Origin: an uncultured virus (IMG/VR IMGVR_UViG_3300010355_001052)
Taxonomy: Duplodnaviria; Heunggongvirae; Uroviricota; Caudoviricetes
Strand: one strand, 5' to 3'
Virus record (IMG/VR): IMGVR_UViG_3300010355_001052
Length of the DNA: 62,392 bases
This document shows, piece after piece, positions 46,737-56,042 of the stretch. Every line of letters starts with the position of its first letter. The stretch's first letter is position 1. Below the pieces are notes generated by a model, which was not told the DNA's origin, ran no database searches, and saw only the letters and a list, made by a program, of their open reading frames with translations. A program made the translations under genes and the position numbers.

Positions 46737-46811
46737 TGGGTGATAGAAGAGGATTGAACTCTTGACCTCCGGCTCCACAAACCGGCGCTCTACCTACTGA
46801 GCTATAGACCC
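46737..46811 (-). tRNA. tRNA-His(GUG) with a mispaired acceptor stem
   Basis: Canonical D arm (GCTC/GAGC), CCGGT-TTGTGGA-GCCGG anticodon arm and T-arm. The acceptor strands GGGTCTA and CTATCAC pair poorly. Confidence 0.65.
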
Positions 46812-53534: not shown

Positions 53535-53604
53535 TGAGTAGTGGTGGTTCCATGTCTTTTAAATAAGATTTCTGTGACCTGGGTCGTATGGCTATCACTA
53601 CTCA
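53535..53604 (+). ncRNA. Stem-closed small RNA domain
   Basis: TGAGTAGTGGTGG/CTATCACTACTCA stem. Confidence 0.4.
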
Positions 53605-53840
53605 TTTTATCATTTAAGAATCTAATTAAGCTAGTTTATGAACAGCAACAATCCAGAGAAGACCCGTAGGTGGAACGTCTGGAAGTAAGAGGTGTGATTC
53701 CTTATTATGGATGTGCCTATAACAGGATACTAGCATGTTATATAATATACCTTAGTACTGAGGGAATTATCATTGCAGTGGTGAAACAAAGCCTGTTTTA
53801 TTTTTTTCCTAATCACATTATTAACTTAAAACTCATCAGT

Positions 53841-54086
53841 ATGGGAGACTGTGCAGAAGATCTTATCAATGGTGTTTGTGACGCACAAGGAGATTATACT
53901 CCTAGTTTCAAACCTAAACGTAGATACAGAAAAGATACACCGGCTGAAGCTAAGATCCGGAGTATTAGAAAAGAATTAGCTATTCTTATTCAGAAAAAAC
54001 AATTAGAGAATGATTCTCAGCCAGTTAATAATGCCAGAAAAGAGATTAATCTTAAATATGGTAAAGGTTGGAGAGAAGAATTTTAG
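53841..54086 (+). CDS. Hypothetical protein (start MGDCAED)
   Basis: ATG after an A-rich leader; the upstream GTG extension overlaps structured RNA. Confidence 0.65.
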   Translation: MGDCAEDLINGVCDAQGDYTPSFKPKRRYRKDTPAEAKIRSIRKELAILIQKKQLENDSQPVNNARKEINLKYGKGWREEF

Positions 54087-54108
54087 TCATTAACCTAAAC
54101 TCATTATT

Positions 54109-54249
54109 ATGAGATCACTAGAAGAATTAGAAGAACAGATTAAAGCTAAAGATAAACTAATAAAGCATCAGAAAGAGGTCATTACAATGTTAACTGCTGT
54201 ATTAATATCAACTTCTATTCTTATTGGATTTTACTCATTAATTAATTAA
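54109..54249 (+). CDS. 46-aa coiled-coil plus TM microprotein
   Basis: MRSLEELEEQIKAKDKLIKHQKEVITMLTAVLISTSILIGFYSLIN*. Confidence 0.55.
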   Translation: MRSLEELEEQIKAKDKLIKHQKEVITMLTAVLISTSILIGFYSLIN

Positions 54250-54255
54250 ACCATT

Positions 54256-54426
54256 ATGAAACTTGAAAAAGGTAATACACTAATAGTTCAAGAGAATTTT
54301 AGTATTACAAAAAAAAGATGTCAAGTCACAATAGTTGAGGTTAATGATCAAGATTTTTCTTGTCTAGTAAGATATAATACCGGATATGAAGAATGGCTTC
54401 CTATTAGTGCATTTGAAGGTTATTAA
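54256..54426 (+). CDS. 56-aa SH3/Tudor-like microprotein
   Basis: MKLEKGNTLIV...TIVEVN...LVRYNTGYEEWLPISAF*. Confidence 0.5.
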   Translation: MKLEKGNTLIVQENFSITKKRCQVTIVEVNDQDFSCLVRYNTGYEEWLPISAFEGY

Positions 54427-54510
54427 AGATCCTGTCAGGCTAAGCCAACAGAGAGTCAAATCGCGCCTGTATTGTTCAATTCCCATTGGTAGTATGGGCG
54501 CGAGGACTCA

Positions 54511-54910
54511 GTTAATGCACCACAACTCACGTAGATATAAAGACTTCTTAATAGAATAAGGTAGGAATACCGCAAGTAACCTGAATTAAGGGAAGTTGTA
54601 TAGAATAAAAGTGTTGACTCTTATTAGAGTTTATGTCTTGAAAGCAGACACCAATACAGGCTAAAGGCTCTTCTATATGATGATGGAATACTATTCTTAT
54701 TAAGATGTGAAACTACCTGATTAATAATTGTTAAAACTATAAGTGATGTACTTATAGGTTGCTTTATTGCAAAACCTCTAATCAGCTCCCAAGGGTGAGC
54801 AATTACAATAGTGTAAGTCCCGTGTTCTAAGTTGTCATAGTCTTAGTAAACACATATAAACTGAGTACATCTATGAGTGGAATACTATTATAACTGAGTT
54901 GCAGAGGGAC
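54511..54910 (+). ncRNA. Twister-ribozyme-like RNA with large peripheral insertions
   Basis: GT-TAA-TGCA-CC ... TCCCAAGG ... TGCA-GAGGG-AC supplies P1, L1, P2, T1 and T2 in the correct order. Confidence 0.55.
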
Positions 54911-54914
54911 AAAA

Positions 54915-54979
54915 TGGTTTACGACACAATCTCTTTGGAGAGGAGGGTCTGAGAATGGGTTCGAGTCCCTAGTAAACCA
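54915..54979 (+). other. tRNA-like element
   Basis: TGGTTTAC/GTAAACCA acceptor-like stem and GGG-TTCGAGT-CCC T-arm; no canonical D or anticodon arm. Confidence 0.45.
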
Positions 54980-55014
54980 CTAAATAATCAAATAATATTT
55001 AAAACAAGACAGTT

Positions 55015-55110
55015 ATGAATTACAGGATTCTAGTAAACATTTGTATAAAATGTAAGAATAAACTTGCCATAATTGATGATAAGTATTGTCAATTTTGTGC
55101 ACCAAAATAA
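55015..55110 (+). CDS. 31-aa zinc-ribbon microprotein
   Basis: CIKC...CQFC motifs. Confidence 0.4.
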   Translation: MNYRILVNICIKCKNKLAIIDDKYCQFCAPK

Positions 55111-55131
55111 TTAATACTAACTTATAACATT

Positions 55132-55548
55132 ATGAAAAAAGAATTTGTGCCTTATGAACAAGCATTAGCTCTTAAAGAATTAGGATTTGATAAACTTTGT
55201 ATAGCTCATTACAGACAAGGAACTACTTTGGTTGCACTTGGTCATGGGATAGCAGGTCTTTCATATAGTGATTTTAAAGATGAAGGTCAGGTACTAGCAC
55301 CAACATTTTCACAAGCATTTAGATGGTTTAGAGAGAAGTATGGTTTACTTTCCTGGATACAAAATATGGGAGATTTAAACCCAGAAGGTTTTACTTGGTA
55401 TATTCAAAGTATAAAAGGAATTGTATTAAATGAATACTCTGAGCCAAAGTTTAAAGATTGGTGTATGTCATTTAAATCTCCTGAAGAAGCTGAACTTGCC
55501 TGTCTAATTAAATTAATTGAAATATGTCGTACACAGAAATCCATCTAG
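55132..55548 (+). CDS. Conserved Bacteroidota-phage protein
   Basis: EFVPYEQALALKELGFD...APTFSQAFRWFREKY...EEAELACL.KLIE motifs. Confidence 0.7.
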   Translation: MKKEFVPYEQALALKELGFDKLCIAHYRQGTTLVALGHGIAGLSYSDFKDEGQVLAPTFSQAFRWFREKYGLLSWIQNMGDLNPEGFTWYIQSIKGIVLNEYSEPKFKDWCMSFKSPEEAELACLIKLIEICRTQKSI

Positions 55549-55943: not shown

Positions 55944-56014
55944 AACCTGTTAGTATAGGGGCAGTATACCGGCCTACAAATCCGGGGACAGAGGTTCGAC
56001 TCCTCTACAGGTTA
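55944..56014 (+). tRNA. Atypical tRNA, anticodon ACA (Cys?)
   Basis: AACCTGT/ACAGGTT acceptor stem, CCGG-C-CTACAAA-T-CCGG anticodon arm, AGAGG-TTCGACT-CCTCT T-arm. Confidence 0.6.
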
Positions 56015-56042
56015 CAATTATTAATCTTAAAACCTTATTATT

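What the first reader, a model, noticed from the sequence alone, without database searches (positions are those of the whole stretch)
54511..54910. Expanded (about 400 nt) twister-like self-cleaving ribozyme
Seen: the twister core elements appear in order. P1 is GT/AC, L1 is UAA (54513-15) opposite GAGGG (54904-08), P2 is TGCA/TGCA and L4 is TCCCAAGG (54787-94). The CCC of L4 can pair with GGG (T1), and its GG can pair with the CC after P2 (T2, replacing the usual GC/GC). The core is separated by large well-paired insertions: TCTTAATA-GAATA/TATTC-TTATTAAGA, CTATAAGT/ACTTATAG, CTGATTA/TAATCAG and AATAGT/ACTATT. Established: twister ribozymes are normally about 50-80 nt. Inference: an unusually large twister cleaving at U54513/A54514 to process the ncRNA/tRNA-like transcript. 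P1 is only 2 bp and P4 is irregular.
Basis: partly seen in the sequence, partly recalled or inferred. Interest (0 to 1): 0.8.

Follow-up and report, generated by a model that had tools for sequence, protein, structure and literature searches.

The report
Oversized twister ribozyme in a phage
A 400-base gene-free stretch of this wastewater phage has the layout of a twister, a small RNA that cuts itself, but carries a large extra folded domain inside its catalytic loop and belongs to a big phage-only branch of twisters that the standard RNA catalogue does not detect.

Summary
At least 99 distinct relatives in phage contigs share one architecture: P1, U|AA, P2, P4, loop UCCCAAGG, a P5 hairpin, P2', GAGGG, P1'. 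P2, P4, P5 and P1 covary. So does the T1 pseudoknot: CCA in the loop always goes with UGG in 5 of 5 cases. Most relatives are compact, about 100-160 nt. Twenty, including the window, carry a conserved two-helix domain of 68-257 nt inside loop L4, and the window's is the longest.

Rfam's twister models do not hit the family, although in the same search they find a canonical twister. T2 and the loop-closing pair differ from the canonical form. Cleavage is untested. RNA-library contigs from several studies cover only 54526-54904, which is a weak hint of a discrete processed RNA. A tRNA-processing role is not supported.

Verdict: probably an expanded self-cleaving twister, a new variant of a known kind. 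Earlier notes of this scan describe an uncatalogued phage twister-like RNA on other DNA. I could not show that it is the same family.

The parts
54453..54509 (+). Very stable hairpin ending 4 nt before the predicted cleavage site. It would form the 3' end of the upstream cleavage product.
   Evidence: MFE -34.7 kcal/mol for 54428-54512, z-score -5.35, and 0 of 200 shuffles fold as well. Across 94 family copies the 50 nt upstream fold better than two control windows.
54511..54512 (+). P1 5' strand (GU), pairing with AC 54909-10. Only 2 bp in this copy.
   Evidence: In 56 compact homologues the innermost P1 pair forms in 45 of 56 and has many pair types.
54513..54515 (+). L1 5' side, U|AA. The scissile bond is predicted between U54513 and A54514.
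   Evidence: The residue before the cut is U in 94 of 99 family members. The AA was required by my parser, but it is also seen in nearly all raw listings.
54516..54520 (+). P2 5' strand UGCAC, pairing with G54898 and UGCA 54900-03. U54899 is bulged.
   Evidence: P2 is 100% paired in 56 homologues, and 3 of its 5 pairs show compensatory changes. Pair types are listed.
54521..54525 (+). C54521, the candidate T2 partner of G54793, followed by the junction ACAA.
   Evidence: C at this position in 98 of 99 members. The junction is AUU, ACAA or AUAA in 94 of 99.
54526..54530 (+). P4 5' strand CUCAC, pairing with GUGAG 54795-99 across the insertion.
   Evidence: RNAalifold on 20 expanded homologues. 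99.3% paired, with all 5 pairs covarying, in 56 compact homologues. 14 pair-type combinations.
54531..54786 (+). 256-nt domain inserted in loop L4. It consists of helix P4a (GUAG 54531-34 with CUAC 54713-16); a conserved internal loop (AUAUAAAG 54535-42 opposite GAAA 54709-12); a long branched arm (54543-54708); and helix P4b (CUGAUUA 54717-23 with UAAUCAG 54779-85, enclosing hairpins). C54786 follows.
   Evidence: Alignment of 20 expanded copies. P4a covaries: GC in 12 and AU in 8 at one pair, and GUAG/CUAC versus GUGG/CCAC in 19 of 20. P4b has 6-10 contiguous pairs in 19 of 20, with different sequences. Insert lengths range from 68 to 257 nt, and the window's is the longest.
54787..54794 (+). 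L4 core UCCCAAGG. CCC 54788-90 forms T1 with GGG 54906-08. GG 54793-94 is the candidate T2 partner.
   Evidence: T1 is 99.4% paired, and 5 of 56 carry the compensatory CCA/UGG. When L4 was left free in the search, 5 of 5 CCAAAGG copies had GAUGG.
54795..54799 (+). P4 3' strand GUGAG.
54800..54896 (+). P5 hairpin. The base helix is CAAUUACAAUAGU 54800-12 with ACUAUUAUAACUG 54884-96, and includes one A-C mismatch (54802/54894). The interior is variable.
   Evidence: P5 is 94.6% paired in 56 homologues and predicted in the expanded set. Its length ranges from 40 to 182 nt in 99 members.
54897..54903 (+). Invariant linker A54897 and the P2 3' strand GUUGCA (U54899 bulged).
   Evidence: The linker is A in 99 of 99 members. 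GUUGCA occurs in 7 of 99 and GUGCA in 77 of 99 (76 with UGCAC, 1 with UGCAU opposite).
54904..54910 (+). L1 3' side GAGGG (G54904 is the candidate catalytic guanine; GGG forms T1), then the P1 3' strand AC.
   Evidence: GA followed by GGG in 87 of 99, and the compensated GA followed by UGG in 5.
54916..54979 (+). Adjacent 64-nt tRNA-like element: an acceptor-like 7-bp stem and a T-arm-like GGGUUCGAGUCCC. It is not part of the ribozyme and not a family feature.
   Evidence: The fold is. ARAGORN and the Rfam tRNA model at E up to 10 do not call it. Its T-loop-like motif lies within 250 nt of only 1 of 95 family copies, the window's own contig.

Best explanation
Window 54511-54910 is an expanded member of a large, uncatalogued clade of type-P1 twister-class self-cleaving ribozymes found in phages.

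Shown by comparison:
- The RNA folds into P1, P2, P4 and P5, with the T1 pseudoknot between CCC of loop L4 and GGG of the GAGGG strand.
- The window's copy, like 19 others, carries a conserved two-helix domain (256 nt here) spliced into L4. It sits between the P4 5' strand and the U of UCCCAAGG.

Inferred from what is established for twisters (review PMC5408937):
- The double-pseudoknot core places A54514 and G54904 at the scissile phosphate.
- The transcript cuts itself between U54513 and A54514. This gives an upstream RNA that ends in a 2',3'-cyclic phosphate four bases after a very stable hairpin (54453-54509). It also gives a downstream RNA that starts with a 5'-OH buried in the folded ribozyme.

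Inferred role: the cut splits the polycistronic transcript of the small plus-strand genes into pieces with independent stability. It leaves the roughly 400-nt ribozyme body as a stable RNA. The inserted domain points away from the core and probably stabilises or modulates folding. Its specific role is unknown.
For: 1. Compact homologue. L020 has the same core with no L4 insertion and a 6-bp P1.

2. Family size. 99 distinct parsed members share one architecture.

3. Covariation on 56 compact members:
- P2 is 100% paired, with 3 compensatory pairs.
- P4 is 99.3% paired, with all 5 pairs compensatory.
- T1 is 99.4% paired, with CCA/UGG in 5 members.
- P5 is 94.6% paired.
- The inner P1 pairs form in 75-80%, with many pair types.
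- Whole structure: 0 of 500 shuffles reach the observed pairing, and slid controls reach at most 47%.

4. Expanded set of 20. RNAalifold independently predicts P2, P4 across the insert, P4a and P5. P4a and P4b covary.

5. Match to the Rfam twister-P1 consensus printed. The order is the same, and UAA, UCCCAAG and GAGGG are identical. The canonical twister hit in L122 shows the same CCA/UGG variant of T1.

6. The family covariance model R1 hits the window only here: 54757-54916, 32 bits, E 2e-6.

7. Weak hint from RNA libraries. Whole contigs with no differences and no loose ends cover 54526-54904 (X3) and 54528-54903 (X4). X5 starts at 54526. The DNA runs X1 and X2 hold 1.00 and 0.98 of the stretch's sampled words.

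8. The 50 nt upstream of family copies are unusually structured: median -9.3 against -6.5 and -6.4 kcal/mol, p about 1e-4 and 7e-6.
Against: - No Rfam twister model (RF03160, RF03154, RF02684) reports the window or any family copy, even at E up to 10. Conversely, my family model R1 does not hit the canonical twister at L122:101-169. Membership therefore rests on motif and architecture, not on a score.
- T2 differs from the canonical GC/GC and cannot be tested by covariation, because it is invariant. In most members the first C pairs locally instead: C-G in 52, U-A in 3 and U-G in 1 of 56.
- The loop-closing pair is variable, not the near-invariant G-C of canonical twisters.
- This copy has weak points: a 2-bp P1, a bulged U in P2, an A-C mismatch in P5, and the largest insert in the set.
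- No cleavage data exist. The RNA contigs start at 54526-54531, not at 54514. A run that is probably DNA (X8) has a contig with similar limits (54531-54812), so contig ends may reflect the assembly rather than RNA ends.
- My searches fixed parts of the core (L4 and the P5 start; the P2 5' strand and the P5 start). My parser required AA and complementary P2 and P4. The invariance of those parts, and the pairing of P2 and P4 in parser-selected rows, are partly by construction.
Confidence: 0.7

Rival explanations
1. A twister-derived structured RNA that no longer cuts itself. The roughly 400-nt folded RNA is itself the product, a stable phage non-coding RNA. Host nucleases make its ends, for example RNase P at the adjoining tRNA-like element on the 3' side.
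For: - This copy has only a 2-bp P1, a bulged P2 and a 256-nt insert in the catalytic loop.
- The RNA contigs cover just the body and stop 11-12 nt before the tRNA-like element.
- Some relatives have a damaged T1, with GAGGA, GAGAG or GAAGG.
Against: - All positions that are catalytic in twisters are retained in the window and in 87 of 99 relatives: U|A, GA, the T1 triplets and UCCCAAG.
- Purifying selection on the cleavage-site dinucleotide is hard to explain without cleavage.
- The env22 twister also has only two Watson-Crick P1 pairs (PMC5408937, passages read).
Confidence: 0.17
2. A convergent double-pseudoknot RNA with another function, such as ligand or protein binding, that only resembles twister.
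For: - Neither Rfam's twister models nor my family model link the two groups by score.
- T2 and the L4-closing pair differ.
- About a quarter of copies lie 31-46 nt upstream of a same-strand ORF, like a leader.
Against: - 14 of the 15 most conserved L1 and L4 letters of the Rfam consensus are identical and in the same order. The helices sit in the same places, and the same T1 variant occurs. This is unlikely by convergence.
- Canonical twisters, a pistol-like hit and GOLLD sit in the same kind of phage regions.
Confidence: 0.08
3. Part of another known large RNA: GOLLD, ROOL, a group I intron or tmRNA.
For: - It is a 588-nt ORF-free structured gap in a phage, next to a tRNA-like element.
- GOLLD lies beside family copies in two other phages.
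Against: - No such family hits the window, either at gathering score over the whole window or at E up to 10 on 54300-55150.
- In L031 the GOLLD match (31-430) ends about 240 nt before the twister-like element, so the two are separate.
- ARAGORN finds no tmRNA.
Confidence: 0.02

Closest known systems
Twister self-cleaving ribozyme, type P1 (Rfam RF03160; features as reviewed in PMC5408937 and PMC6154101)
   Same: - Open P1, U|AA at the cut, P2, P4, loop UCCCAAG, GAGGG strand, and a T1 pseudoknot CCC/GGG that shows the same CCA/UGG covariant.
- An A immediately before the P2 3' strand.
- Found among phage genes.
   Different: - Not detected by the Rfam models.
- P5 is always present, against 1% of annotated twisters. 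P3 is almost always absent, against 78% present (PMC6154101, passage read).
- P2 has five pairs rather than four.
- L2 has C(C) and L4 ends in GG instead of GC/GC, so T2 is altered or reduced.
- The pair closing L4 is variable, and an extra U follows it on the 5' side. In 20 of 99 members a 68-257-nt domain sits at that spot instead.
Twister-sister ribozyme (Rfam RF02681)
   Same: Vaguely similar helices and loops, and an A 3' of the cut (PMC5408937, passage read).
   Different: Twister-sister has no pseudoknots and is cut on the other strand. This family has a covarying T1 and the twister L4 sequence. Rfam gives no hit.
Self-cleaving ribozymes (hammerhead, twister) near phage genes in bacteria, suggested to process polycistronic transcripts (review PMC6765202, passages read)
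   Same: It lies inside an operon of small phage genes, and cleavage would separate cistrons.
   Different: - That biological role is itself unproven.
- This clade was found almost only on phage contigs. The 8 complete copies in species-representative genomes are all on MAG contigs.
- A strong hairpin is often placed just upstream of the cut.
GOLLD and ROOL, large ornate phage RNAs (Kretsch et al. 2025, PMC12286853, section on GOLLD read)
   Same: Large, highly structured non-coding RNA in phages that accumulates as RNA. GOLLD lies beside family copies in L031 and L144.
   Different: There is no sequence or model similarity. This RNA has a recognisable ribozyme core.

Membership tests
Twister ribozyme (RF03160, RF03154, RF02684) | Essential stems P1, P2 and P4 in this order, supported by covariation | tested here: met
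   (56 compact members): P2 is 100% paired, P4 99.3%, and the inner P1 pairs 75-80%, all with compensatory changes. (20 expanded members): P2 is predicted, and P4 is predicted across the insert. The window has all three, but its P1 is only 2 bp.
Twister ribozyme | Pseudoknot T1 between L4 (CCC) and the 3' side of L1 (GGG) | tested here: met
   99.4% paired. 5 of 56 members have CCA with UGG. With L4 left free in the search, 5 of 5 CCAAAGG copies have GAUGG. The five may stem from a single event.
Twister ribozyme | Pseudoknot T2 between a conserved GC in L2 and a GC bulged from L4 | tested here: inconclusive
   Here L2 reads C-C and L4 ends in GG. The C54521-type pair with G is invariant (56 of 56), so it carries no information. 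The first C covaries with the base before the P2 3' strand instead (C-G 52, U-A 3, U-G 1), and L022 has GU at the L4 end.
Twister ribozyme | At least ten nucleotides more than 97% conserved in L1 and L4, with a conserved A 3' of the cut and a less conserved U 5' of it | tested here: met
   Against the Rfam consensus printed, UAA, UCCCAAG and GAGGG are identical, and only the last L4 letter differs (G for C). The residue before the cut is U in 94 of 99 members. Caveat: parts of these motifs were fixed by my search patterns and parser.
Twister ribozyme | P2 of four Watson-Crick pairs, and a near-invariant G-C pair closing L4 | tested here: not met
   P2 has five covarying pairs. The pair closing L4 is C-G, A-U or U-A, followed by an extra U or by the inserted domain.
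Twister ribozyme | Score at or above the Rfam gathering threshold of a twister model | tested here: not met
There is no twister hit, even at E up to 10, on the window or on 20 homologous loci. Positive control in the same search: the canonical twister at L122:101-169 scores 48.5 bits, E 1e-8. The long P5 and the L4 insertion are not modelled by RF03160.
Twister ribozyme | Site-specific self-cleavage giving a 2',3'-cyclic phosphate and a 5'-OH | not testable with these tools
   There is only a weak hint. RNA-library contigs of several studies begin at 54526-54531 and end at 54903-54904 with no loose ends.
GOLLD RNA (RF02032) | Match to the conserved 3' region model | tested here: not met
   No hit in the window. 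Sub-threshold hits occur beside family copies in L031 and L144 only.
tRNA (for 54916-54979) | Cloverleaf recognised by ARAGORN or by Rfam RF00005 | tested here: not met
   Searches report nothing there. The fold shows an acceptor-like stem, a 4-bp hairpin and a 3-bp T-arm-like hairpin.

The most novel reading that the evidence does not exclude
The domain spliced into the catalytic loop L4 is a functional module rather than ballast. It has a conserved AUAUAAAG/GAAA internal loop and two covarying helices. It could make this twister a regulated (allosteric or partner-dependent) ribozyme, or it could turn the cleaved roughly 400-nt RNA into a stable phage non-coding RNA with a job of its own. In the second case self-cleavage would serve as the maturation step that defines the RNA's 5' end.
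Probability: 0.2. Interest if true: 0.8.

Novelty: new variant of a known kind. Interest (0 to 1): 0.68.

Why it matters
Twisters are textbook small ribozymes of about 50-80 nt, and their biological role is still unknown. Three points follow from this finding.

1. A large phage-borne clade escapes the Rfam models, so surveys that rely on those models undercount twisters in viruses.
2. The twister fold appears to tolerate a 70-260-nt structured domain inside the loop that builds its active site. It also seems to tolerate a remodelled T2 and P2. This bears on how the fold works and on engineering twister-based switches.
3. The recurrent layout makes the long-standing 'transcript processing' hypothesis directly testable. 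A strong hairpin comes first, then the cut, then the folded ribozyme, often 30-45 nt ahead of a gene. RNA-library contigs cover just the ribozyme body. The hypothesis can be tested with this locus and its compact relatives.

Tried and rejected
- **Initial prior.** I first expected a group I intron, tmRNA, or a GOLLD- or ROOL-like RNA with a tRNA-like 3' end. I rejected this because there is no Rfam or ARAGORN support.
- **Annotated phages.** blastn of the region and megablast of 10 kb around it found no match.
- **The window's own assembly** is not held. The nearest record, G001, is 100% identical over the RNA and so is not independent.
- **Cross-detection by covariance models failed both ways.** Rfam twister models do not hit the family. 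The family model R1 does not hit the canonical twister in L122. R1 aligns only the 3' part of the window's copy, because it cannot span the L4 insert.
- **tRNA-processing role.** ARAGORN found 1 doubtful tRNA in 60 loci. A T-loop-like motif lies near 1 of 95 copies.
- **Promoter and terminator scan of 53600-55400.** Counts were no higher than in shuffles.
- **MFE of the whole gap.** It is only mildly better than shuffles (z -2.31), and P5 alone is not better (z 0.21). Single-sequence folding was uninformative. Comparison with relatives was decisive.
- **The insert's loop motif as a free-standing module.** Near compact copies it is rare. The script flagged 5 of 79, of which 2 are clear.
- **RNA libraries.** No contig in X3 or X4 covers the flanking ORFs (53900-54493 and 54926-55500), and none bridges 54513/54514. 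Missing cover in contigs proves nothing, so it is not used as evidence.
- **Literature searches** found no description of this variant: GOLLD with twister; twister, ribozyme, bacteriophage, tRNA; twister-like; twister ribozyme, phage, metagenome, new variant. The primary twister papers, Roth 2014 and Weinberg 2015, are not held. Their alignments may already contain some compact P5-bearing members.
- **Earlier notes of this scan, looked up by sequence.** Nothing was found.

Full report
**Setting**

The window is a phage. Terminase, portal and major head protein genes lie on the minus strand. A run of small plus-strand ORFs follows from about 50 kb. The finding sits in a 588-nt gap without ORFs, 54427-55014. 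Rfam at gathering thresholds finds only four tRNA matches in the whole window. A permissive scan of 54300-55150, with E up to 10, finds no twister, GOLLD, ROOL, intron or tRNA. ARAGORN finds no tRNA or tmRNA there. My prior for the twister reading was therefore low.

**Observation**

All motifs are at the stated coordinates:
- GU 54511-12 with AC 54909-10.
- UAA 54513-15.
- UGCA 54516-19 with UGCA 54900-03.
- UCCCAAGG 54787-94.
- GAGGG 54904-08.

**Homologues change the picture**

The nearest held record is identical over the RNA and so uninformative. I fetched loci around relatives of the flanking proteins, and nhmmer then found one diverged match, L020. Read directly, L020 has the same core in compact form. 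It runs: a 6-bp P1, U|AAUGCACC, ACAA, CUCAC, UUCCCAAGG, GUGAG, a long hairpin, A, GUUGCA, GAGGG. In the window, about 256 nt sit between CUCAC and UCCCAAGG.

Three motif scans of viral contigs followed:
- The 3' motif gave 12 stretches, 3 of them chance hits in coding sequence.
76 of its 124 instances have UGCAGAGGG within 400 nt.
About 33 of its 109 distinct hits are family members.

A parser that required AA and complementary P2 and P4 strands returned 139 rows, of which 107 were distinct. I dropped 8 visibly mis-parsed loci. That left 99 members: 79 compact and 20 expanded, counting the window's near-identical contig L029.

**Structure**

I tested the proposed structure, with T1 and T2 written as pseudoknots, on 56 compact members. 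These were 56 of the 79, chosen for P5 of at most 100 nt (alignment A1). Results:
- 87.7% of cells pair, against 79.5% in shuffles (0 of 500 shuffles reach it). With slid partners the figure is 30-47%.
- P2 is 100% paired, and 3 of its 5 pairs have compensatory changes.
- P4 is 99.3% paired, and all 5 pairs have compensatory changes.
- P5 is 94.6% paired.
- T1 is 99.4% paired, with C-G replaced by A-U in 5 sequences.
- The inner P1 pairs form in 45 and 42 of 56, with five or more pair types. The outer P1 pairs are weak.

The T1 covariant comes from the search in which L4 was free. All 5 copies with CCAAAGG have GAUGG. It may be one inherited event.

For the 20 expanded members (alignment A2), RNAalifold independently predicts P2, P4 closing over the insert, a helix P4a and P5. 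P4a has G-C in 12 and A-U in 8 at one pair. A script shows P4a as GUAG/CUAC or GUGG/CCAC in 19 of 20. It also shows a second helix, P4b, with 6-10 contiguous pairs of differing sequence in 19 of 20.

The insert is therefore a conserved module. It consists of P4a, an internal loop (AUAUAAAG opposite GAAA), a variable arm, and P4b, followed by C and the L4 core. Insert lengths range from 68 to 257 nt, and the window's is the longest.

**Is it a twister?**

The review PMC5408937 (passages read) defines the class as follows:
- Stems P1, P2 and P4, with P0, P3 and P5 optional.
- Pseudoknots T1 and T2.
- At least ten nucleotides more than 97% conserved in L1 and L4.
- A conserved A after the cut.
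- A four-pair P2.
- A near-invariant G-C pair and a U-A pair that extend P4.

The Rfam twister-P1 consensus is printed. Against these, the family compares as follows:
- It has the same order of elements.
- UAA, UCCCAAG and GAGGG are identical.
- T1 covaries, and the same variant is seen in a canonical twister (L122:101-169).

It differs in five ways:
- P5 is universal, and P3 is absent in all but one or two members. In annotated twisters P5 is present in 1% and P3 in 78% (PMC6154101, passage read).
- P2 has a fifth covarying pair.
- L2 and L4 read C-C and G-G instead of GC and GC.
- The L4-closing pair varies.
- An extra U, or the insert, follows the L4-closing pair on the 5' side.

No Rfam twister model reports any family copy at E up to 10. 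In the same run they do find the canonical twister in L122. My family model R1 hits the window only at 54757-54916 (32 bits, E 2e-6). It does not hit the canonical L122 twister.

I therefore call this a twister-class variant on architecture and motif evidence, not a scored member.

**Mechanism (inferred)**

As in solved twisters, T1 and P2 would stack and bring A54514 and G54904 to the scissile phosphate. The cut falls between U54513 and A54514. A very stable hairpin ends four bases upstream (z -5.35). Across 94 copies the upstream 50 nt are more structured than control windows: median -9.3 against -6.5 and -6.4 kcal/mol. 41% fold at -10 kcal/mol or better, against 16-18% of controls. Many of these hairpins look like terminators whose U-tract doubles as the P1 5' strand.

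After cleavage the upstream RNA would end just past a protective hairpin. The downstream RNA would begin with a 5'-OH inside a compact fold. In about a quarter of copies a same-strand ORF starts 31-46 nt downstream. This fits the published, unproven suggestion that such ribozymes split polycistronic transcripts (PMC6765202, passages read).

**RNA evidence (weak)**

Of 24 runs that hold part of the stretch, 15 are recorded as RNA. I laid four runs on 53900-55500:
- X3 gives a whole contig at 54526-54904, with 0 differences.
- X4 gives a whole contig at 54528-54903, with 0 differences.
- X5 starts at 54526.
- X8, which is probably DNA, covers 54531-54812.

None of these contigs has a loose end at those outer limits. 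The DNA runs X1 and X2 hold 1.00 and 0.98 of the sampled words. These limits lie 12 nt inside the predicted cut and 11-12 nt before the tRNA-like element. They are compatible with a discrete RNA of about 400 nt, but contigs cannot prove ends, and the X8 contig warns that the assembly may set them.

**Context and distribution**

- tRNAs are not a family feature. One doubtful tRNA was found in 60 loci, and a T-loop motif near 1 of 95 copies.
- In species-representative genomes, 8 complete copies were found among 37 pattern instances, plus 3 seen with only the 5' half. All lie on MAG contigs and none in isolate genomes.
- GOLLD sub-threshold matches lie beside family copies in L031 and L144. A canonical twister lies about 105 nt upstream of the family copy in L122.

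**Novelty**

My four literature searches found no description of this variant. The primary twister papers are not held, so some compact members may already be in their alignments. Earlier notes of this scan (e1-5990305, e1-6114237) mention an uncatalogued twister-like phage RNA with P5. A look-up by sequence found nothing, so I cannot say it is the same family.

To my knowledge, and by recall only, a structured domain inside L4 is new. The same applies to the altered T2 and P2.

Noticed in passing
window 54916-54979: A 64-nt tRNA-like element directly after the ribozyme. It has a 7-bp acceptor-like stem (GGUUUAC/GUAAACC), a 4-bp hairpin, and a T-arm-like GGGUUCGAGUCCC followed by A-CUA. ARAGORN and Rfam do not call it. 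It is unique to this phage among 95 family loci. It might be an RNase P handle that sets the 3' end of the ribozyme RNA.
   Followed up: partly
window 54453-54509, and the 50 nt upstream of 94 family copies: A very stable hairpin ends 4 nt before the predicted cut. Family-wide, upstream hairpins are enriched, and many are terminator-like with a U-tract that doubles as the P1 5' strand.
   Followed up: partly
L031:31-430 and L144:348-619 (minus strand): Sub-threshold but significant matches to the GOLLD model RF02032 (90.4 bits, E 7e-23; 67.7 bits, E 2e-16) lie beside family copies in other phages.
   Followed up: no
L122:101-169 and L122:274-418: A canonical small twister-P1 (48.5 bits, with the CCA/UGG variant of T1) sits about 105 nt upstream of a copy of the new family. 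These are two different twisters in tandem.
   Followed up: no
L141:90-147: A weak match to the pistol ribozyme model (25.4 bits, E 0.19) lies upstream of a family copy.
   Followed up: no
window 55944-56015: ARAGORN calls a tRNA-Cys with the anticodon ACA. To my knowledge, and by recall only, this is an unusual anticodon for Cys.
   Followed up: no
window 46747-46804 (minus strand): Rfam reports a partial tRNA match (model positions 8-63, 46.1 bits) next to two full tRNAs. ARAGORN does not call it.
   Followed up: no
L211 (about 150 nt upstream of its copy) and L103 (about 260 nt downstream): A free-standing hairpin carries the same loop motif as the L4 insert (GUAGAUAUAA...GUGAAACUAC). The insert's core may therefore be a mobile RNA module.
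   Followed up: partly
L048, L074, L095, L101, L147, L291: Two family copies lie within a few hundred bases of each other in the same locus.
   Followed up: no
window 54725-54779, run X5: An RNA-library contig of a relative replaces 53 nt inside helix P4b's loop with 76 other letters. This fits the view that this loop is freely variable.
   Followed up: no
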